From NCBI GenBank assembly GCA_002796325.1, contig PCXA01000006.1, forward strand, positions 70,578 through 134,577: a stretch of DNA of 64,000 bases, in the 5' to 3' direction. The translations under genes were made by a program, and so were the position numbers. The notes under the pieces were generated by a model. The model worked only from the letters and a program-made list of their open reading frames with translations, had not been told where the DNA came from and made no database searches. Each line of letters begins with the position of its first letter. Within the stretch, counting starts at the first letter, position 1. Shown piece by piece: positions 5,793 through 47,617 of the stretch. The DNA is from Deltaproteobacteria bacterium CG11_big_fil_rev_8_21_14_0_20_47_16 (GTDB taxonomy: Bacteria > UBA10199 > GCA-002796325 > 1-14-0-20-47-16).

Positions 5793-6038
5793 TTACTCTT
5801 CGACGTTGAAAGGTTCACGGCTCAGCTGTCCATCTTCCTTTTGAATCAATTTTTCAATTTTACCTTGAGCAGCTGTCAGTGCGGATTCACATTTTCGCGC
5901 CCACGCAACACCCTCTTCGTACATTTTGAGAGAATCATCTAATGTAAGCGTGCCTGATTCCAATTTTTTGACAGCGCCTTCTAATTGCTCGAGCGATTTT
6001 TCAAATGAAACGGTTTCTTCTGTTTTTTTGGCCGACAT
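5793..6038 (-). CDS. xseB: Exodeoxyribonuclease VII small subunit
   Basis: This is an 81-aa protein with the FEKSLEQLEGAVKKLESG...LDDSLKMYEEG pattern characteristic of XseB. Confidence 0.9.
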   Translation of the reverse strand: MSAKKTEETVSFEKSLEQLEGAVKKLESGTLTLDDSLKMYEEGVAWARKCESALTAAQGKIEKLIQKEDGQLSREPFNVEE

Positions 6039-6045
6039 AATGACT

Positions 6046-6083
6046 ACCCCCTCACCCTAACCCTCTCCCACTGGGAGAGGGGA
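6046..6083. repeat. Palindromic GC-rich repeat element, copy 1 (CCCCCTCACCC-N3-CCCTCTCCC-N4-GGGAGAGGG), intergenic between xseA and xseB
   Basis: A 9-bp stem CCCTCTCCC/GGGAGAGGG with a 4-nt loop, with a CCCCCTCACCC block beside it. The same architecture recurs at 26331-26365 and 26742-26778. Confidence 0.7.
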
Positions 6084-6084
6084 A

Positions 6085-7353
6085 TTAAATCACCTTTGTT
6101 TCAACATGCCCTTTTTCCAAGCGCACATCCAAGACATCGCCGGGCTTTAACTGCGCTGCATCGCGTACCGTGGCGCCATCTTTTTGAACAACGGCATAGC
6201 CTTTGGCCAACACCGCGAGCGGTGACAAATGTTGCAACTGCCCCGCCCACTGGGCGACTGCCTGACGGCGATCCCCTATGCCACGCCGCATGGCCATCTG
6301 CAAGCGCTCCCTTAAACTATCCACCCACTGCAATCCATCGGTAATCCGCTGCGTGGGAAACCGCAACCGCTGGCGCAAATGGTGCAGGCGTTCAGATGCA
6401 CGCGTAATCGCACCGCGCAACCCTTGATCCAATCGGCGCTGGATATTCCCAATCCCCTGCAAGAGTTCTGCACGCACCGGTACCGCAATTTCGGCCGCTG
6501 CTGACGGCGTGGGCGCACGAACATCCGCCACAAAATCCGCAATCGTAAAATCAATTTCGTGTCCCACGGCGCTAATAATTGGTGTTGTCGCTGCAAAAAT
6601 AGCACGTGCAACCACTTCTTCATTAAATGCCCATAAGTCTTCAATCGACCCGCCACCACGCCCCACAATCATGACATCCACATCACCGCGCGCATCTAGC
6701 AATTCAATCGCCCGCGCAATTTCAGCAGCAGAACCATCCCCTTGTACTTTTGCAGGCACCAGACAAATATCCACCGAGGGGAAACGACGCCGTAGCACCG
6801 TGCAAATATCGCGCACCGCAGCCCCCGTGGGCGACGTTACCACACCCACACGCCGTGGCATGTATGGAATTGGTTTCTTTTTGGATTTGTCAAAGAGTCC
6901 TTCGTCAGCAAGCTTCTTCTTAAGCTGTTCGAACGCGAGTTGTAACGCCCCAACCCCTTTGGGTTCACAGTAATCGATGATGATTTGATAACTGCCACGC
7001 GGCGGATAGACCGACAACTTGCCGTGGCAAATGAGTTCCATGCCCTGTTCGACTTTAAACTTCACAGCGCTATTCACACCACGGAACATGACTGCACTGA
7101 GTTGACTGTTGGCGTCCTTCAGAGAAAAATACCAATGCCCCGACGATGCCGGCCGCCAATTGGACACCTCGCCACAGACCCAGACGTCATCGAACGTGCC
7201 TTCCAGAATATTGCGAATCCCTGTGGTAATTTCGGTGACAGATAGAACACGCGGCCCTGCAGGCTTGGGGTCCTCAACCACTTCCGAATGCGCACTATCC
7301 TCTTCGGGCAGCGGCGTTTCGTTCATTAAATCAAACAGGTCCTGTTGACTCAT
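6085..7353 (-). CDS. xseA: Exodeoxyribonuclease VII large subunit
   Basis: An N-terminal OB-fold is followed by the catalytic domain, 422 aa in all. It sits immediately upstream of xseB. Confidence 0.9.
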   Translation of the reverse strand: MSQQDLFDLMNETPLPEEDSAHSEVVEDPKPAGPRVLSVTEITTGIRNILEGTFDDVWVCGEVSNWRPASSGHWYFSLKDANSQLSAVMFRGVNSAVKFKVEQGMELICHGKLSVYPPRGSYQIIIDYCEPKGVGALQLAFEQLKKKLADEGLFDKSKKKPIPYMPRRVGVVTSPTGAAVRDICTVLRRRFPSVDICLVPAKVQGDGSAAEIARAIELLDARGDVDVMIVGRGGGSIEDLWAFNEEVVARAIFAATTPIISAVGHEIDFTIADFVADVRAPTPSAAAEIAVPVRAELLQGIGNIQRRLDQGLRGAITRASERLHHLRQRLRFPTQRITDGLQWVDSLRERLQMAMRRGIGDRRQAVAQWAGQLQHLSPLAVLAKGYAVVQKDGATVRDAAQLKPGDVLDVRLEKGHVETKVI

Positions 7354-11733: not shown

Positions 11734-12882
11734 TTAGCGGACTTTTTCATTTGCTGCAAGCACTTGCTGCAATGCCCATTCCGCATGTTCCCGAATCAGG
11801 GGTTCTGGGTCTTCGACAGCGTGTTGCAGCGCAGGTATCGCAGCAGGGTCCTTACTATTTCCCAACGCCACCGCCACATTGCGCAAAAACCGCGCGCGCT
11901 TAATACGCTTGATGGGGGAATTTTTGAAGCGGGCCCGAAACTCATCGTCGGACATATACATGAGTGGCATCAGCTCTGGATTCAAATTGCCTTTGCGGGG
12001 CTCAAACGCCGCTTCGGGTGTGGGCGTGGCAAAGCGATTCCACGGACAGACATCTTGGCAGATGTCACAGCCATAAATATGATTACCCATCAGCGGACGC
12101 ATTTCGAGTGGGATGCTACCTTTGTGTTCAATGGTGAGATACGAAATACATTTGCGGGGATCGAGTTTGTACGGCGCCATGATTGCGCGCGTGGGGCAGG
12201 CATCAATGCAGCGCGTGCAGGTGCCGCAACTGCCCGTTGAAACGACTGCCTCTCTGGGTCCTGTCACCGAATCACCCCATTTGTCGGCATCGCCTTCGGT
12301 GTGCGCGGAGCTAGATATATCACGGGACTCGGCCTGCTGGCGAAAATGGGGTCCCCATTCGGTGCCACCCAAAGAGGCAGTCGTAATAATTTCTCCAATA
12401 AAAAACCACGAACCCCGTTTGGAATCGATCAAGTTGGTATGCTTGCCCTGCCACCCCAGCCCCGCACGCACCGCCCAGGGTTTTTCCATCACAGGTCCCG
12501 TGTCCACATAGGCCAAACATTCCGCATCGGGATTTTCAGCGACAATCCATTCAGCCAACTGTTTCAACTTAGGCAGAAACACGTCGTGATAGTCATCGCC
12601 CCAGGCATAACGGGAAATGCGTCCATTTCGGGCATTATTGGTTTGGGTGTGTAACGTGTAATAGTTCAGCGTACAGCTGATCAGGGTCTTGGCTCCTGCC
12701 AGCACTTTTCGAGGATCCGCACGACGCGCAGGGTCACGAGTCATCCACAGCATCTCGCCCTGTAGCCCTTCTGCCAACCAAGTATCCAGGTCCCGTGCCA
12801 GCTCTGGTGCGTCAAAGATCGGCGTTAGCGCAACCGACTGCAAACCCAATTCTGACGCCTTTTTTAGCAATTCTTTACTCAT
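11734..12882 (-). CDS. queG: Epoxyqueuosine reductase
   Basis: There are two 4Fe-4S ferredoxin motifs (CGTCTRCIDACP and CDICQDVCPWN) plus C-terminal HEAT repeats. Confidence 0.9.
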   Translation of the reverse strand: MSKELLKKASELGLQSVALTPIFDAPELARDLDTWLAEGLQGEMLWMTRDPARRADPRKVLAGAKTLISCTLNYYTLHTQTNNARNGRISRYAWGDDYHDVFLPKLKQLAEWIVAENPDAECLAYVDTGPVMEKPWAVRAGLGWQGKHTNLIDSKRGSWFFIGEIITTASLGGTEWGPHFRQQAESRDISSSAHTEGDADKWGDSVTGPREAVVSTGSCGTCTRCIDACPTRAIMAPYKLDPRKCISYLTIEHKGSIPLEMRPLMGNHIYGCDICQDVCPWNRFATPTPEAAFEPRKGNLNPELMPLMYMSDDEFRARFKNSPIKRIKRARFLRNVAVALGNSKDPAAIPALQHAVEDPEPLIREHAEWALQQVLAANEKVR

Positions 12883-25741: not shown

Positions 25742-27961
25742 TTACAGGAATTCCGTCAACGTCTCTGGGATTTTGCCAAATAAAATGCCATCGACAGCAT
25801 GGTAGGCGGGATCACGGCGCACATCCGACTCGTTTTCACCAGTCGCCAATACAACTCTGCGAGCACCATTTTCCTTCAAATAGCCCAGCATCTGCGCCCC
25901 ATTGTACTGAGAATTTTCAATATTCTTGTCAATGACACACAGATCGCAACTTGCAAGATCGATGTCCGCCTGAATCGCAGCCTCCAGATTTGGAAAACTG
26001 TGCAGCGTGACAATACCAAGACGATTTTTAAGTGCGTTCCAGGTGACGCGAATGGCGTTGTCGTCGTCGATTAAAAGGACAGTGTGCCCAGCTTTGTCAT
26101 TCTGAGGGAGCGTAGCGACCGAAGAATCTAGACTCCTCACCACCACCTTGGGCAACGGTTTGGGGCACAAGGTCACGTTGAGCTTCTGTGCAGCTTCTTT
26201 AATTGCCGGCTTCCAGTATTCCGCGGTTGCCAAAACACACTGCACGGCACCCTTTTCTTTTAGACGACGGATGATTTCCAGGCCATCAACGATGCTGTTG
26301 TCAAAGTGGTAGTCGATGATGAAGGTATTTCCCTCTCCTTGTGGGAGAGGGCCAGGGTGAGGGGGCAGTGCACTCGCATACTCTTCCCAGCAAGTATAAA
26401 TCTCCGGCGTCACCCCCTGCGCCTTCAACGTTAACCGCCATTGCTCGCGCAGACTGGATTCGTCGTCGATGACAACAACTTTGGAATCTGCATTGACTGG
26501 GATTGTAATAAGCATTTCTTCATTTTGAATTGTTGCGGGGAGCGTGATGATGAACGTGGTGCCCACACCCACTTTAGACTCAATGGCCAGTGAACCCTTA
26601 TGGGCATCCACCATGTCGCGCACCACTTTGGTGCCAATGCCGTGGCCATCTTCTTTGCCTTCGCTGTGACCACCTTGCAAAATGAGTGAAATTTTATCGG
26701 CAGGAATACCCGGGCCAGTGTCGGTGATGCGAATAGAAACTCCCTCTCCCCCCGTGGGAGAGGTTTGGGGTGAGGGGGTCTTGAGTGTTGTCGACACTGT
26801 GAGCTGTTTAACTTTGTCGGAAGTATTCTGCTGCATCGCCTCTAGCGCGTTTTTAATGATATTCCCAATGGCACGGGCCATGCCCGTTTTGTCACCGGTC
26901 ACATACAAAGCTTCTGTATGGTACTGCTTTTTAAACTCTGTTCCTTGACCCAGTGGCGACGCACGTAGTTCGCCGATCAACTCGTCCAATACTTCGTGGA
27001 TTGAAAATAGCTGTTCAGCCGCCGATTCACCCATATGATTTGAGAGCAGGCCGTTTGCGATATTGTCTAACCGATTGCTGGACAATTGAAGTAAGTTGAA
27101 TAGCTCTTCAGCATCTTTGTCGTTTCCAAATTTATCACGTAGCAACATTAAAGCTGCACGCATTGATGACAATGGGGAGCGGATGTCGTGGGCAACCCGC
27201 GAAGAAAGCTTTCCAAGTTCAGCATCAAATTCAAGCTGCTTGGCCTGTTCTTGATATTCTTTGTTGGCGTTGAGGCTTTTTTGTAGTGATAATGCCAATG
27301 CTCTCAGTTCTTTTAATCGAAAATTATTAACACCTATGCCAATATCGTCACCGCCTTTAATCAATTCAATCATGCGTTTTGTTGGGCGCATAACAAATTG
27401 ACGAAGGATGAAAAGGGCTGCAATTACTATTGCAACGAGCCAAATTAGCACAAGCGTCAGGTATTGTAGAAATGCAGTGTTTCTAAAACGCTGAAATGGT
27501 TTAAGGTCCATTTCCTTTACGAGATAACCCACGTTCTGACCTGCTGAAAGCAGCTCGTGGTAAATGCGAAATGATGTCGGTGTATATTCGTAACAGGTTG
27601 GGGATTGACGAAAATATGTTTTGAAACTTCCCACCTGACATGTTTCCAGTACATGCGTAGAAATGGCTGATTGGGGCAAAATGTAAGCAGCCCTAAGTCC
27701 TTCTCCCTCTTTTATTCCTTGTAAGAGGTTGTTTACTTCGTCCTGTTTGTCTAAGATAATCTTCGGAGTTATTACTGCATAGTATGATGAGGTATAAGCG
27801 GCACTCTTTGAAAGATTATCGTTTCGCCATGCCGTATTGTATCTCTCGGCTTCTTTATTCACCATGACATAACCGATTCCTATCGTTGCGCAAGCACCAA
27901 CCAGCAGTATGCACGCAAGCACCTGATTCAGTGTAAATTGCGTGGGCGGCCTTTTGTTCAT
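25742..27961 (-). CDS. Hybrid sensor histidine kinase with two receiver domains
   Basis: Two TM segments flank a periplasmic sensor domain. The H-box is HDIRSPLSSMRAAL. The HATPase domain has a G1 box (ITDTGPGI) and a G2 box (GHGIGT). Two receiver domains follow (VVVIDDESS and VLLIDDDNA). The gene contains two in-frame copies of the palindromic repeat. Confidence 0.85.
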   Translation of the reverse strand: MNKRPPTQFTLNQVLACILLVGACATIGIGYVMVNKEAERYNTAWRNDNLSKSAAYTSSYYAVITPKIILDKQDEVNNLLQGIKEGEGLRAAYILPQSAISTHVLETCQVGSFKTYFRQSPTCYEYTPTSFRIYHELLSAGQNVGYLVKEMDLKPFQRFRNTAFLQYLTLVLIWLVAIVIAALFILRQFVMRPTKRMIELIKGGDDIGIGVNNFRLKELRALALSLQKSLNANKEYQEQAKQLEFDAELGKLSSRVAHDIRSPLSSMRAALMLLRDKFGNDKDAEELFNLLQLSSNRLDNIANGLLSNHMGESAAEQLFSIHEVLDELIGELRASPLGQGTEFKKQYHTEALYVTGDKTGMARAIGNIIKNALEAMQQNTSDKVKQLTVSTTLKTPSPQTSPTGGEGVSIRITDTGPGIPADKISLILQGGHSEGKEDGHGIGTKVVRDMVDAHKGSLAIESKVGVGTTFIITLPATIQNEEMLITIPVNADSKVVVIDDESSLREQWRLTLKAQGVTPEIYTCWEEYASALPPHPGPLPQGEGNTFIIDYHFDNSIVDGLEIIRRLKEKGAVQCVLATAEYWKPAIKEAAQKLNVTLCPKPLPKVVVRSLDSSVATLPQNDKAGHTVLLIDDDNAIRVTWNALKNRLGIVTLHSFPNLEAAIQADIDLASCDLCVIDKNIENSQYNGAQMLGYLKENGARRVVLATGENESDVRRDPAYHAVDGILFGKIPETLTEFL
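26331..26365. repeat. Palindromic repeat element, copy 2, inserted in-frame in the first receiver domain of the histidine kinase
   Basis: The sequence CCCTCTCC-ttgt-GGGAGAGGG-cca-GGGTGAGGGGG on the minus strand encodes PPHPGPLPQGEG, placed between helix alpha2 and strand beta3 of the receiver domain. Confidence 0.7.
26742..26778. repeat. Palindromic repeat element, copy 3, inserted in-frame in the HATPase ATP-lid region of the histidine kinase
   Basis: The sequence CCCTCTCCCC-ccgt-GGGAGAGG-tttg-GGGTGAGGGGG encodes TPSPQTSPTGGEG just upstream of the G1 box. Confidence 0.7.
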
Positions 27962-28923
27962 TCCGAATTTCCCTCAAGGGTGGTGGTTGATTTAAGCAGT
28001 GTGACTGGCGTGAGAGTGTTTGTCCTTTCGTGTTTACGCTGGATACATTCAATCAAGTTATCCAGGCCAATTTTACCCATGACTTCGGGTGCCTGCACAA
28101 TAGATGCATCAATTTTTTGAAGAAGCAAGCCTTTTTGACCAACCAGCGTTCCGTCAACACCAACAATGATAGGGCGCTTAAGCGATGGGTGCTCACTGTA
28201 GTAACGGCTGATGCCCAAGGCCATTGGATCGTTATAAGCAAAGATGGCATCAATCGGTTGTTTCTTACTTCGTACAAATGAGGAAAACTCTGTGTGAGCC
28301 GATTCTTCTTCCCACCATCCCTGAACGAATCCAATAAGATGGATATTTTTATGCTGAGACATCTCAGAAACAAAACCATTTTCCCTATCAATACTAGACT
28401 GGTGCTTGTGATTGCCTCGCATTAAAAAGACTGACCCACTAGAAACGTGCTCAATAATGTATTGAGCAGCCAGTTTCCCGGCATAAACATTATCCGTGCC
28501 AACAAACCCACAATCATTCTTAAATGACCTGCTGGTAGCCGTGTCTGATAGTGGTGTATCAATAAGAATAAACGGCATGCCCGCTTTATCGATTGCCTCC
28601 ATGTATGAAACAAGGGCCTCCGAATCATTGGGGGCCAACATAACGCCATCGTATTCTTTACTGCTTGCGATGTCTTTCAGTGCCTGTTTTTGGGTTTCAA
28701 CGTCCTGCTGGCTACTGCCTGAGATGATGTCAACTTGTATGCCGTCCTTGGCCATTTCTTTTCTAACGCCGTTTGCAATACCATCATGAAAGCTTTCACC
28801 CTTGAGTTTTGCAACATAAGCAATTTTCAATACCTTCTGTTGCTGCGCTTTTTGCCCAGAACAGCACATAGATAGCAGTGCTGTTGAAATTAGGGTTGCC
28901 AGTTTGAGAACGTGTTGCGCCAT
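27958..28923 (-). CDS. Periplasmic binding protein (type-I, sugar-binding/TorT-like fold), probable lipoprotein
   Basis: A signal peptide with Cys (LLSMCCSG) precedes a periplasmic-binding-protein fold with sugar-binding-like motifs. It is translationally coupled to the downstream hybrid kinase by a 4-nt overlap. Confidence 0.6.
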   Translation of the reverse strand: MAQHVLKLATLISTALLSMCCSGQKAQQQKVLKIAYVAKLKGESFHDGIANGVRKEMAKDGIQVDIISGSSQQDVETQKQALKDIASSKEYDGVMLAPNDSEALVSYMEAIDKAGMPFILIDTPLSDTATSRSFKNDCGFVGTDNVYAGKLAAQYIIEHVSSGSVFLMRGNHKHQSSIDRENGFVSEMSQHKNIHLIGFVQGWWEEESAHTEFSSFVRSKKQPIDAIFAYNDPMALGISRYYSEHPSLKRPIIVGVDGTLVGQKGLLLQKIDASIVQAPEVMGKIGLDNLIECIQRKHERTNTLTPVTLLKSTTTLEGNSE

Positions 28924-46930: not shown

Positions 46931-47617
46931 TTATTTTTTAGAATCCCAATTCACACCATTTAACGGGCAGTTTTCACACTGGGGCTTGGGTTTGCAAAAC
47001 TCCTTCCCCACTCGCACCAGCAACGCATGGTATTCGTTATAGTACTGGATTGCTTCGGGGCGATCACCCCTCGCAATGACATCACTGAGCGCCGACGTCA
47101 TTGTTTCCTGCATTTCAGTATAATCAGCTTCTTCGGTAATCAAAAAGTGACGCGACAACACGCGGTGCGTGTAAGCATCAATTACAAAACTCGGTTGATC
47201 CAACGCGTAGAGCAAAATGGAATCGGCTGTTTCCGGCCCAATTCCCTTCACCGCCAGCAACTCCTCGCGCAGTGTGGCCAGGGACTTATCGCGCATTCGC
47301 GTAACGTCACCGCCATAAGTGTCCACAAAGTATGTCAGAAAATGATGTAAGCGATTCGCCTTGATATTGAAATATCCTGCGGGTCGAATCAACTCCGCCA
47401 AATCCTCATGTGATAGCCGTCGCATGGCATGCGGCGTCAGCACCCCGCGCAACTTTAAATTTGCAATCGCCTTTTCAACATTTCCCCAATTGGTATTCTG
47501 GGTAAGAATCGCCCCCACCATCACTTCGAATGGCGTCTCTCCCGGCCACCAGCGTTGGGGACCAAATGCGTTGAATAATTTGGAATAAATTTCAGTGATA
47601 AAGTCACTGCGTGACAT
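46931..47617 (-). CDS. HhH-GPD superfamily DNA glycosylase (endonuclease III-like)
   Basis: The helix-hairpin-helix motif is LLAVKGIGPETAD and the catalytic Asp is in SFVIDAYTHRV. A C-terminal partial Cys cluster (CKPKPQCENC) is present. Confidence 0.75.
   Translation of the reverse strand: MSRSDFITEIYSKLFNAFGPQRWWPGETPFEVMVGAILTQNTNWGNVEKAIANLKLRGVLTPHAMRRLSHEDLAELIRPAGYFNIKANRLHHFLTYFVDTYGGDVTRMRDKSLATLREELLAVKGIGPETADSILLYALDQPSFVIDAYTHRVLSRHFLITEEADYTEMQETMTSALSDVIARGDRPEAIQYYNEYHALLVRVGKEFCKPKPQCENCPLNGVNWDSKK

What the first reader, a model, noticed from the sequence alone, without database searches (positions are those of the whole stretch)
26331..26778. Small GC-rich palindromic repeat inserted twice in-frame inside the hybrid histidine kinase gene
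Two copies of a roughly 37-nt element interrupt the kinase ORF at 26331-26365 and 26742-26778. The element is CCCTCTCC(C)-N4-GGGAGAGG(G)-N3/4-GGGTGAGGGGG. Neither copy breaks the reading frame. They add the Pro/Gly-rich peptides PPHPGPLPQGEG (in the alpha2-beta3 loop of receiver domain 1) and TPSPQTSPTGGEG (in the ATP-lid just before the G1 box). Both sit in surface-loop positions where insertions are tolerated. This pattern, a mobile palindromic element colonising coding sequence in-frame, is the hallmark of Rickettsia palindromic elements and of a few other MITE-like repeats. It has not been reported for this sequence family as far as I can tell.
Basis: seen in the sequence. Interest (0 to 1): 0.65.

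Follow-up and report, generated by a model that had tools for sequence, protein, structure and literature searches.

The report
BoxC repeats translated inside a kinase
Two copies of BoxC, a small GC-rich repeat known since the 1990s and found across bacteria, sit in frame in two surface loops of a histidine-kinase gene, and following them led to a possible partner nuclease (DUF559) for this unexplained repeat family.

Summary
Two 35-37 nt GC-rich hairpin-plus-tail elements lie at 26331-26365 and 26742-26778. Both are in frame in a 739-aa hybrid histidine kinase gene. Shuffled sequence gives 0 matches.

The family is not new. All three copies fit the published BoxC / PIT / TM_ECO pattern with 0-1 mismatch. 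That repeat has about 16-18 copies per E. coli genome, and an exact pattern scan found it across many bacterial phyla.

Most orthologous kinases lack both inserts. Those that carry one keep the nucleotide palindrome: third-codon-position identity is 77% in the inserts against 33-42% in the flanks. So these are secondary element insertions, not an ancestral linker.

A structure model puts both inserts in loops. The second is a beta-hairpin before the G1 box, not the ATP lid.

In-frame BoxC copies also occur in LigA, HsdR, YgiQ, an IcmF-like mutase, GlnE, E3 and MetRS of other phyla. The E. coli literature calls BoxC strictly intergenic.

New lead: DUF559 (YcjD-like) nuclease genes are tightly flanked by inverted, co-varying BoxC copies, as REP sequences flank RAYT genes. 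Mobilisation is inferred, not shown.

The parts
26331..26365 (+). BoxC/TM_ECO copy 1. The + strand carries the C-arm, loop, G-arm and G-tail; the kinase mRNA carries the C-rich complement. It encodes PPHPGPLPQGEG in the alpha2-beta3 loop of receiver domain 1.
   Evidence: Sequence. Fits the TM_ECO pattern with 1 mismatch, and the + strand is a canonical G4 motif. In frame. The loop lies between helix 524-530 and strand 545-549 of the model. Absent from P0002 and most orthologues; present at the same site and frame in P0008.
26742..26778 (+). BoxC/TM_ECO copy 2. It encodes (T)PSPQTSPTGGEG in the beta-hairpin loop between the N box and the G1 box of the HATPase_c domain.
   Evidence: Sequence. 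Fits the TM_ECO pattern with 1 mismatch. The loop lies between strands 385-393 and 406-413 of the model. Absent from P0002 and others. P0012 has the same site, frame and ACCTCTCCCAC variant, plus an extra 9 nt in the spacer, which there reads as a small GGCC-TTCG-GCC hairpin.
6047..6082 (-). BoxC/TM_ECO copy 3, intergenic between xseA (6085..7353, minus strand) and xseB (5793..6038, minus strand). It matches the published pattern perfectly and has the 'type A' TTA second loop.
   Evidence: On the xse transcript strand it reads CCCCTCTCCCAGTGGGAGAGGGTTAGGGTGAGGGGG, which is the G-rich, G4-capable strand.
25742..27961 (-). Host gene: a hybrid histidine kinase of 739 aa, with a sensor region, HisKA, HATPase_c, receiver domain 1 and receiver domain 2.
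   Evidence: ORF. Pfam finds HisKA 250-306, HATPase_c 356-477 and Response_reg 628-718. Receiver domain 1 is recognised from the invariant DD/D/T/K columns and the model's (beta-alpha)5 pattern. The protein is 100% identical to P0001 from a 'Deltaproteobacteria bacterium CG11_big_fil_rev_8_21_14_0' genome assembled from a metagenome (MAG), on an 816-kb contig.
26087..26128 (-). Right arm of a second, unrelated palindromic repeat family, translated in frame as DSSVATLPQNDKAG in the disordered linker between the two receiver domains. It is not part of BoxC. It is listed because it shows the same gene tolerates a second kind of in-frame repeat.
   Evidence: The full hairpin of about 75 nt is in frame at the same place in P0002. 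The linker has pLDDT below 50.

Best explanation
The two segments are copies of the BoxC / PIT / TM_ECO repeat. This is a roughly 35-nt GC-rich unit made of a 9-bp hairpin (CCCTCTCCC-loop-GGGAGAGGG) plus a third block (GGGTGAGGG) that nearly duplicates the G arm. The single strand can therefore form a hairpin, an intrastrand triplex or a G-quadruplex. The copies entered the kinase gene after the gene family diversified. They survive because three conditions hold: five of the element's six reading frames are open, the inserted length keeps the downstream frame, and both landed in solvent-exposed loops. One loop is the alpha2-beta3 loop of receiver domain 1, on the face away from the phospho-acceptor site. 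The other is a beta-hairpin turn before the G1 box. They are simply translated as Pro/Ser/Gly-rich loop extensions and are most likely passengers, not functional parts of the kinase. This much is shown or follows closely from the data. How BoxC copies spread is inferred. My best guess is that a DUF559 (YcjD-like) nuclease acts on them in trans. This nuclease has a Vsr/EDxHD-type PD-(D/E)XK fold, and its gene is typically sandwiched between two inverted BoxC copies. Solitary BoxC copies would then be non-autonomous relatives, as REP/REPIN sequences are to RAYT genes.
For: Identity of the element:
- All three window copies fit Holder et al.'s pattern CCCTCNCCC-N3-6-GGGNGAGGG-N3-GGGNGAGGG with 0-1 substitution (pattern quoted).
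- The window copy matches 5401 of 5426 E. coli genomes, median 18 places per genome.
Hits came from Proteobacteria, Cyanobacteria, Chloroflexi, Planctomycetes, Verrucomicrobia, Acidobacteria, Bifidobacterium, Omnitrophica and others.

Secondary insertion:
- 12 of 15 aligned orthologues lack both segments, including the closest one at DNA level.
- Shared inserts have 77% third-position identity against 33-42% in the flanks. Identical codons for identical residues are 82-90% against 38-48%.
- P0012 has the receiver-domain insert in a different reading frame.
- On the core tree, the N-box/G1 hairpin insert is shared with a protein outside the 100%-supported clade, whose sister protein lacks it.

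Amplification within this lineage:
- All three window copies have a loop starting with 'AC', seen in 6% of 161 copies from other genomes.
- Loops are identical in 28% of pairs of copies taken from the same locus and 2.5% of pairs from different loci.

Tolerated positions:
- The AF2 model (mean pLDDT 83) puts both inserts in loops.

Generality:
- In-frame copies sit between or inside Pfam domain matches in eight other genes: an IcmF-like mutase, YgiQ, LigA, HsdR, a Mo-hydroxylase/cytochrome c fusion, E3, GlnE and MetRS.

DUF559 link:
- All 5 DUF559 hits in the 120 BoxC loci lie within 170 nt of a BoxC. That zone covers 7.2% of the sequence, so p is about 2e-6.
- In 80 metagenomic DUF559 loci, 158 of 183 BoxC hits lie within 200 nt of the gene, a zone covering 16% of the sequence.
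- 42 of those loci have the left-minus/right-plus inverted arrangement, with median gaps of 34 and 14 nt. The reversed-sequence control gives 18 hits.
- The two flanks of one gene co-vary: identical loops in 26% against 0.8% between loci.
- E. coli ycjD lies about 170 nt from the BoxC in the fabI-ycjD gap. I recall fabI/envM as the locus where BoxC was first described; I did not check this.
- The DUF559 profile matches PDB 3hrl and, weakly (E = 0.008), the I-Bth0305I homing-endonuclease domain (PMC3384342).
Against: - No target-site duplication or clean filled-versus-empty junction was seen. The kinase orthologues are too diverged for that (about 66% nucleotide identity). An E. coli test locus (adk-hemH) showed segment replacement, not a clean insertion.
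- No DUF559 gene lies in the 64-kb window or in the kinase loci L001-L004.
- The rest of the source genome could not be scanned, so its copy number and intragenic fraction are unknown.
- Two of the three window copies, and all three copies in the 18-kb P0012 locus, are inside this one gene family. A random passenger model does not predict that.
- The same site, frame and variant in WIN and P0012 could mean an old insertion kept by selection at the nucleotide level.
- The DUF559 query set was chosen from BoxC-adjacent genes, so the reverse test describes one subfamily only.
- In E. coli the ycjD and BoxC-count relation is confounded by phylogroup.
- Holder et al. found no link between the motif and transposons, phages or plasmids.
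Confidence: 0.7

Rival explanations
1. The elements are kept in the kinase gene for a function at the nucleic-acid level. A hairpin/triplex/G-quadruplex switch inside the coding sequence could pause transcription or translation between domains, or act as a recombination or indel hotspot that varies the kinase.
For: The nucleotide sequence of shared inserts is far better conserved than synonymous sites of the flanks. The same two loops are occupied in kinases that are only 45-56% identical. The copies are concentrated in this gene: 2 of 3 in the window and 3 of 3 in L003. In vitro triplex and G4/hairpin switching is published for the E. coli element (PMC4666352, PMC5100583). The + strand of copy 1 is a canonical G4 motif.
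Against: 12 of 15 orthologues do without either insert. The P0012 receiver-domain copy is in another frame, and both orientations occur in other genes, so no consistent strand or frame logic emerges. Published work found no promoter or terminator activity and no in vivo triplex footprint for the E. coli element. Conservation is equally explained by recent insertion from a conserved master copy.
Confidence: 0.13
2. DUF559 is not the mobilising enzyme. BoxC copies would spread or be regenerated by host replication, repair or recombination. DUF559 would be either a selfish homing-type gene that uses BoxC as its landing site, or a host factor that processes BoxC structures and is autoregulated by flanking copies.
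For: The association is structural only. E. coli ycjD is single-copy at one fixed locus. Genomes without ycjD, such as O157:H7, still hold about 12 BoxC places. The filled and empty alleles at adk-hemH look like replacement, not transposition. DUF559 resembles homing endonucleases, which copy themselves and not unrelated repeats (PMC3384342).
Against: A homing site would not need to be an inverted pair that co-varies within each unit. The arrangement copies the REP-RAYT signature. All 12 sampled E. coli genomes with 8 or fewer BoxC places lack ycjD, although this is confounded by phylogroup.
Confidence: 0.3
3. The Pro/Gly-rich segments are ancestral linker or loop peptides of this kinase family, and the palindrome is incidental.
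For: The segments lie in loops, where length variation is common.
Against: The segments are absent from most orthologues. Wherever they are present, the full nucleotide palindrome and tail are present too. The same 35-nt unit occurs in an intergenic spacer of the window and in hundreds of unrelated genomes.
Confidence: 0.02
4. The segments are removed before or during protein synthesis, by splicing or by translational bypass as in T4 gene 60 or the mitochondrial byp elements, and never appear in the protein.
For: The elements are small, GC-rich and hairpin-forming inside coding sequence, which resembles byp elements (from my own knowledge).
Against: All seven copies in the kinase family, and all validated copies in other genes, are stop-free and keep the downstream frame. 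Bypass would not require that, although the sample was selected for open frames. No matching take-off and landing codons were seen. No Rfam family matches anywhere in the window.
Confidence: 0.02

Closest known systems
BoxC / PIT (potential intrastrand triplex) / TM_ECO / HPGQ repeats of E. coli and other bacteria (Holder et al. 2015, PMC4666352; Kaplan et al. 2016, PMC5100583; earlier papers as cited there)
   Same: The three-block sequence, lengths and spacings are the same: C arm, 3-6 nt loop, G arm, 3 nt, second G block. The window's intergenic copy even has the 'type A' TTA second loop. The element is dispersed, occurs in both orientations and is much more GC-rich than its surroundings.
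   Different: In E. coli the element is reported as always intergenic. Here two of three copies are in frame inside a gene. The host is an uncultured deltaproteobacterial lineage. Density in the window is 3 copies per 64 kb, roughly ten times that of E. coli, though the sample is small.
Rickettsia palindromic elements (RPE), from my own knowledge (Ogata et al. 2000)
   Same: Both are palindromic repeats inserted in frame in protein-coding genes, translated, and located at surface positions tolerated by the fold.
   Different: As far as I recall, RPEs are about 100-150 bp and confined to Rickettsia and its relatives. BoxC is about 35 nt, carries a third triplex/G4-forming block and occurs across bacteria. 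I made no sequence comparison with RPEs.
REP/REPIN sequences and their RAYT (IS200/IS605-type Y1) transposases, from my own knowledge (Nunvar 2010; Bertels and Rainey 2011)
   Same: Short GC-rich hairpin repeats are present in many copies. A usually single-copy nuclease gene is flanked by two inverted copies of the genome's own repeat variant. This is the pattern seen here for DUF559 and BoxC.
   Different: The enzyme fold differs: a Vsr/EDxHD-like PD-(D/E)XK nuclease instead of a Y1 HUH transposase. BoxC has no conserved 5' GTAG. BoxC has the same consensus across phyla, whereas REPs are species-specific. No activity has been shown.
EDxHD homing endonucleases (I-Bth0305I; PMC3239194, PMC3384342) and the Vsr nickase
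   Same: The DUF559 profile matches the I-Bth0305I catalytic domain (3r3p, E = 0.008) and 3hrl (E = 6e-38). YcjD detects Vsr in profile searches. A conserved E-x-D-G-x-Q-H block is present.
   Different: The homing endonucleases sit in introns or inteins and have a large DNA-binding domain. The DUF559 units here are about 110-aa free-standing ORFs bounded by inverted repeats.
Small dispersed repeats (SDR) of heterocystous cyanobacteria, from my own knowledge (Elhai et al. 2008)
   Same: They are very small (about 20-30 nt) mobile-looking repeats found inside genes as well as between them, with no known transposase.
   Different: The sequence families differ, and SDRs are lineage-restricted.

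Membership tests
BoxC / PIT / TM_ECO | Sequence pattern CCCTCNCCC-N3-6-GGGNGAGGG-N3-GGGNGAGGG, with one mismatch allowed (Holder et al. 2015) | tested here: met
   copy 3 has 0 mismatches, and copies 1 and 2 have 1 mismatch each. The pattern is quoted.
BoxC / PIT / TM_ECO | Dispersed in multiple copies, in both orientations, far above chance | tested here: met
   3 copies in 64 kb in both orientations against 0.00 expected. The rest of the genome was not available.
BoxC / PIT / TM_ECO | Direct similarity to the E. coli elements | tested here: met
   window:6040-6090 matches 5401 of 5426 E. coli genomes, median 18 places, 84-90% identity over 78-84% of the query in the listed rows.
BoxC / PIT / TM_ECO | Intergenic location (descriptive in E. 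coli: 'always intergenic') | tested here: not met
   Two of three copies are inside an ORF. I treat this as a property of the E. coli sample, not a defining feature. Eight other intragenic copies were validated.
BoxC / PIT / TM_ECO | The single strand forms an intrastrand triplex or a G-quadruplex/hairpin switch in vitro | not testable with these tools
   Only the hairpin could be predicted (-15.6 to -24 kcal/mol). A G4 motif is present in copies 1 and 3.
Rickettsia palindromic elements | Element of about 100-150 bp belonging to the RPE sequence families of Rickettsia | tested here: not met
   The length here is 35-37 nt, and the host is a deltaproteobacterial MAG. Sequence similarity to RPEs was not tested.
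REP / REPIN-RAYT | Conserved 5' GTAG tetranucleotide on the hairpin, and a flanked Y1 (RAYT) transposase gene | tested here: not met
   No GTAG borders any of the three copies. The gene found flanked by BoxC is DUF559 (PF04480), not a Y1 transposase. RAYT presence in the source genome was not tested.
MITE (miniature inverted-repeat transposable element) | Terminal inverted repeats plus a target-site duplication, and clean empty sites | tested here: inconclusive
   The hairpin arms could count as inverted repeats. No duplication is visible at either kinase site. The orthologues are too diverged for exact junctions. The E. coli adk-hemH alleles are replacements.
DUF559-BoxC unit (proposed here) | A DUF559 ORF bounded within about 200 nt on both sides by inverted BoxC copies with the tails facing inward | tested here: not met
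   No DUF559 ORF lies in the window or in L001-L004. The window copies are solitary. The unit itself is documented in L019, L023, L059 and 42 of 80 metagenome loci.

The most novel reading that the evidence does not exclude
BoxC/PIT/TM_ECO repeats have been unexplained since the 1990s. On this reading they are the inverted terminal repeats, and solitary or paired non-autonomous derivatives, of a selfish or domesticated module found across bacteria. Its enzyme would be the DUF559 (YcjD-like) nuclease, which is related to Vsr and to EDxHD homing endonucleases. This would be a second system of the REPIN-RAYT type, built on a different nuclease fold. Its copies, and in one case (metG, L023) the whole unit, colonise protein-coding genes in frame in many phyla, including the two loops of this kinase.
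Probability: 0.4. Interest if true: 0.8.

Novelty: new member of a known kind. Interest (0 to 1): 0.5.

Why it matters
Taken alone, the finding is two more copies of a known repeat in an unusual but harmless place. It matters in three ways.

1. It shows that BoxC is not confined to intergenic DNA, as the E. coli literature states. BoxC adds Pro/Gly/Ser-rich loops to real enzymes in several phyla: LigA, HsdR, MetRS, an IcmF-like mutase and this kinase. Annotators and structure predictors should recognise these segments as repeat-derived.

2. Presence and absence among orthologues, together with genome-specific loop variants, give direct comparative evidence that BoxC copies are gained and amplified within lineages.

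3. The tight, co-varying inverted BoxC flanks of DUF559 genes provide a concrete candidate enzyme that can be tested in E. coli (ycjD). That bears on a question open since the 1990s: what BoxC/PIT elements are and how they spread.

Tried and rejected
- **Fold significance.** The hairpins are stable, but z-scores against shuffles are weak (-0.8 to -2.6). I did not use folding energy as evidence.
- **Rfam.** No family reaches its gathering score anywhere in the window.
- **Clean empty site in E. coli.** At adk-hemH, 2913 genomes have the K-12-type (BoxC-containing) allele. The others carry a segment of about 55 nt in place of about 160 nt. This is uninformative about target-site duplication.
- **ycjD presence against BoxC number in E. 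coli.** The difference is striking: median 17 against 8 places, and all 12 low-count genomes lack ycjD. However, ycjD follows phylogroups A, B1 and C and replaces the eefRABC operon. I count this as consistent only.
- **ORF-span screen of 161 copies from other genomes.** 46 copies sit in stop-free frames with at least 60 codons on both sides. Many genomes are 60-70% GC, and four of the top candidates (L015, L032, L107, L066) read as nonsense Arg/Ala-rich frames. Only Pfam-validated cases are counted.
- **Literature.** No paper in the held library mentions the BoxC-derived peptides, or links DUF559 or ycjD with BoxC. Subscription journals are not covered.
- **Parsimony on the kinase tree.** The receiver-domain insert fits one gain. 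The N-box/G1 hairpin insert needs either two gains at the same site and frame or at least four losses. I could not decide between them. The 9-nt spacer difference between WIN and P0012 hints at common descent.
- **Searching the source genome.** It was not possible to look for DUF559 or further BoxC copies elsewhere in the source genome with the tools. The single genome-contig scan went to the pattern search.
Full report
**1. What is in the sequence**

- On the + strand, positions 26331-26365 read CCCTCTCC-TTGT-GGGAGAGGG-CCA-GGGTGAGGGGG. Positions 26742-26778 read CCCTCTCCC-CCCGT-GGGAGAGG-TTTG-GGGTGAGGGGG.
- Both lie in the 739-codon ORF 25742..27961 on the minus strand. Pfam finds HisKA, HATPase_c and a C-terminal receiver domain in it.
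- The ORF is read straight through both segments, giving ...ALPPHPGPLPQGEGNTF... and ...LKTPSPQTSPTGGEGVSI....
- The hairpin core CCTCTCC-N2-10-GGAGAGG occurs three times in the window, against 0.00 in 100 dinucleotide-preserving shuffles.
- The third copy is at 6047-6082 in the opposite orientation: CCCCCTCACCC-TAA-CCCTCTCCC-ACT-GGGAGAGGGG. It fills the 46-nt gap between xseB and xseA.
- The window is 48.5% G+C, so these units stand out.
- Predicted hairpins are stable (-15.6 to -24 kcal/mol). They are not strongly better than shuffles of the same C-run and G-run composition.

**2. What it is**

A full-text search for the sequence blocks led to two papers.
- Holder et al. 2015 (PMC4666352) define TM_ECO as CCCTCNCCC-N3-6-GGGNGAGGG-N3-GGGNGAGGG. 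This is the element earlier called BoxC, and PIT for 'potential intrastrand triplex'. MG1655 has 23 copies, 'always located intergenically', and 262 proteobacterial genomes hold 3610 copies. The element forms a triplex in vitro but gave no in vivo footprint. It is associated with small intergenic indels, and no link to transposons, phages or plasmids was found.
- Kaplan et al. 2016 (PMC5100583) describe the same element as a G-quadruplex/hairpin switch, with 'all motifs flanking ORFs and none within'.

All three window copies fit the published pattern: copy 3 perfectly, with the 'type A' TTA second loop, and copies 1 and 2 with one substitution each. Two of the three canonical G4 motifs in the window are BoxC copies.

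The window's intergenic copy matches 5401 of 5426 complete E. coli genomes, median 18 places per genome.

Hits came from Alpha-, Beta-, Gamma- and Deltaproteobacteria, Cyanobacteria, Chloroflexi, Planctomycetes, Verrucomicrobia, Acidobacteria, Bifidobacterium, Omnitrophica, Bipolaricaulota and others.

So the family is old and occurs across bacteria.

**3. Insertion, not ancestral linker**

- The kinase is 100% identical to a protein of a 'Deltaproteobacteria bacterium CG11_big_fil_rev_8_21_14_0' genome assembled from a metagenome (MAG). It has clear orthologues at 45-72% identity.
- In a 16-sequence alignment, 12 of 15 orthologues lack both segments. For the closest one, P0002, this was confirmed at DNA level.
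- P0008 has the receiver-domain insert at the same site and frame. Its sequence is CCCCCTCACCCTAGCCCTCTCCCAAAGGGAGAGGG.
- P0012 has three copies. One is the insert in the beta-hairpin between the N box and the G1 box (below, 'the N-box/G1 hairpin insert'). It has the same site, frame and ACCTCTCCCAC variant as the window, plus an extra 9 nt in the spacer, which there reads as a small GGCC-TTCG-GCC hairpin. The second is a receiver-domain insert in a different reading frame (PLTPALSHEGRGG). The third is a variant copy in the linker.
- P0017 has a copy in the linker.
- Shared inserts are far more conserved than the coding flanks. Third-position identity is 77% against 33-42%. Identical codons at identical residues are 82-90% against 38-48%.
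- On a neighbour-joining tree of the kinase core, the window protein and P0008 are the two basal branches of a 90%-supported clade. The receiver-domain insert therefore needs one gain, plus at most one loss.
- The N-box/G1 hairpin insert is shared with P0012. P0012 lies outside the 100%-supported 11-member clade, and its sister protein lacks the insert. That needs two gains at one site or at least four losses.
- Copies within one genome resemble each other. All three window copies have a loop starting 'AC', which occurs in 6% of 161 copies from other genomes. In general, loops are identical in 28% of pairs of copies taken from the same locus and 2.5% of pairs from different loci.

The element is repeated elsewhere, and no orthologue carries the peptide without the palindrome.

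**4. Where the inserts sit in the protein**

An AlphaFold2 model was built from a 43-sequence alignment (mean pLDDT 83). Its numbering is the protein's minus one.
- The receiver-domain insert lies between helix 524-530 and strand 545-549. This is the alpha2-beta3 loop of a complete (beta-alpha)5 receiver domain with the DD, D, T and K residues conserved. From established knowledge of CheY-like domains, this loop is on the face away from the phospho-acceptor pocket.
- The other insert is the turn of a beta-hairpin (strands 385-393 and 406-413). It lies between the N-box helix (357-376) and the G1 box DTGPG.
- The ATP lid is the following segment, about 414-442. The 'ATP-lid' label is therefore wrong, though the conclusion that this is a tolerated surface loop stands.

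Translating the copy 1 sequence in all six frames by hand, I find five open; the sixth contains TGA. Together with loop positions, this explains why copies can persist in coding sequence.

**5. The behaviour is general**

I screened the 161 copies from other genomes for long open frames and tested ten candidates against Pfam. Eight lie in genes with domain matches on both sides of the element or spanning it.
- IcmF-like fused mutase (Acidobacteriota): between the MeaB and mutase domains.
- YgiQ radical-SAM protein (Anaerolineales): inside PF08497.
- LigA: the insert splits the adenylation domain match.
- HsdR: inside the SWI2/SNF2 ATPase match, in a 38% G+C stretch of DNA.
- Mo-hydroxylase/cytochrome c fusion.
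- Lipoyl-E3: in the linker.
- GlnE.
- MetRS.

Both orientations occur. I found no paper in the held library that mentions such in-frame copies or their peptides.

**6. How it might spread (inference)**

In the MetRS case (L023), two inverted BoxC copies bracket a DUF559 (PF04480) domain. The whole unit is in frame in metG.

Forward test:
- Searching all held loci, every DUF559 ORF among the 120 BoxC loci lies within 170 nt of a BoxC. The five loci are L019 Acinetobacter, L023 betaproteobacterium, L059 Beijerinckiaceae, L069 Sphingomonadaceae and L066 Dyella (a fragment).
- That zone covers 7.2% of the sequence, so p is about 2e-6.

Reverse test:
- I fetched 80 metagenomic loci encoding relatives of these DUF559 proteins.
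- 158 of 183 BoxC hits fall within 200 nt of the gene, a zone covering 16% of the sequence. Only about 11 loci have none.
- 42 loci have the full arrangement: [hairpin-GGGTGAGGG] - about 34 nt - DUF559 ORF - about 14 nt - [CCCTCACCC-hairpin].
- The reversed-sequence control gives 18 hits.
- The two flanks of one gene share their variable parts. Loops are identical in 26% against 0.8% between loci, and spacers in 19% against 2.8%.

Other observations:
- In E. coli K-12 the DUF559 gene ycjD lies about 170 nt from the BoxC in the fabI-ycjD gap. I recall fabI/envM as the locus where BoxC was first described; I did not check this.
- ycjD is present in 3378 of 5426 genomes.
- In a 60-genome spread sample, ycjD-positive genomes have 11-24 BoxC places (median 17). 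ycjD-negative genomes have 1-18 (median 8), and all 12 genomes with 8 or fewer places lack ycjD.
- That contrast follows phylogroups, because ycjD replaces the eefRABC operon in groups A, B1 and C (PMC12817139). It is therefore not independent evidence.
- DUF559/YcjD is a Vsr-like PD-(D/E)XK protein. Its profile matches PDB 3hrl and, weakly, the catalytic domain of the EDxHD homing endonuclease I-Bth0305I (PMC3384342).

A nuclease gene flanked by inverted copies of the genome's own repeat variant is the signature that linked RAYT transposases to REP sequences (my own knowledge). I therefore propose DUF559 as the enzyme partner of BoxC.

Nothing here shows activity. No DUF559 gene lies in the window. 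No paper in the held library links the two.

**7. What remains unexplained**

- Why this kinase family collects copies: 2 of 3 in the window, and all 3 in the 18-kb P0012 locus.
- Whether the same-site, same-frame copies in distant orthologues reflect old insertions kept by selection at the nucleotide level, recurrent insertion filtered by protein tolerance, or exchange between kinases.
- No target-site duplication is visible. An E. coli filled-versus-empty comparison at adk-hemH showed segment replacement, not a clean insertion.
- The same gene also carries, in its disordered inter-receiver linker, half of a second, unrelated palindromic repeat family that most orthologues have in fuller form.

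**8. Verdict**

The element is a secondary, in-frame, loop-located insertion of a dispersed palindromic repeat. It is the well-known BoxC/PIT/TM_ECO family, not a new one, and one structural placement was wrong.

As an object it is a new member of a known kind, in an unreported context: coding sequence, in an uncultured deltaproteobacterium. The more interesting product of the follow-up is the DUF559-BoxC association, which is a hypothesis that can be tested in E. coli.

Noticed in passing
window 26087-26128 (minus strand); L001 about 11790-11870: A second palindromic repeat family sits in frame in the same kinase, in the disordered linker between the two receiver domains. The window keeps only the right arm: GATTCTTCGGTCGCTACGCTCCCTCAGAATGAC, translated as DSSVATLPQNDKAG. 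P0002 has a full hairpin of about 75 nt (GTCATTGCGA...GAAGCAATC...GATTGCTTCG...TCGCAATGAC). Most orthologues carry versions with peptides such as CHPEPKAKDL..DSS..PQNDK. The arm pattern occurs 14 times in 10 of 209 held sequences, against 1 in the reversed control.
   Followed up: partly
window 47048-47080, inside ORF 46931..47617 (minus strand), an HhH-GPD protein: A possible half-copy of that second repeat family is read in frame as DVIARGDRPEAIQ inside an endonuclease-III-like gene. It could be a chance match.
   Followed up: no
L023:1777-4515 (minus strand), betaproteobacterial MAG: A complete BoxC-DUF559-BoxC unit of about 190 codons lies in frame inside metG, between the anticodon-binding domain and the C-terminal tRNA-binding domain.
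   Followed up: partly
L126-L205 (80 metagenome loci); L019, L023, L059, L069: DUF559 (PF04480) ORFs are sandwiched by inverted BoxC copies with the tails facing inward. Median gaps are 34 and 14 nt, and the two flanks of each unit co-vary. No paper in the held library describes this.
   Followed up: yes
E. coli genomes; L125 (NC_000913.3 1349500-1352500), L209, L210: ycjD (DUF559) is present in 3378 of 5426 complete E. coli genomes, always between fabI and sapF. Genomes that lack it have the eefRABC efflux operon there instead. In a 60-genome sample, all 12 genomes with very few BoxC copies (1-8) lack ycjD, but this follows phylogroup.
   Followed up: partly
L206/L207/L208 (E. coli adk-hemH intergenic region): Alleles with and without BoxC differ by replacement of about 160 nt (BoxC plus a terminator-like hairpin) with an unrelated segment of about 55 nt. 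There is no clean empty site.
   Followed up: yes
L003:7240-7290; L032, L052, L144, L147, L167, L173: A BoxC subfamily carries a small extra GC hairpin in the spacer between the tail and the stem (for example CCCTCACCC-GGCCTTCGGCCG-ACCTCTCCC). The window's copy 2 has the same ACCTCTCCC stem start without the spacer hairpin, a 9-nt in-frame difference from P0012.
   Followed up: partly
window 27958-28923 (minus strand) and L001 9039-10004: The kinase gene overlaps by 4 nt the end of an upstream periplasmic-binding-protein gene (Peripla_BP_4). This gene pair is conserved in the P0002 locus.
   Followed up: no
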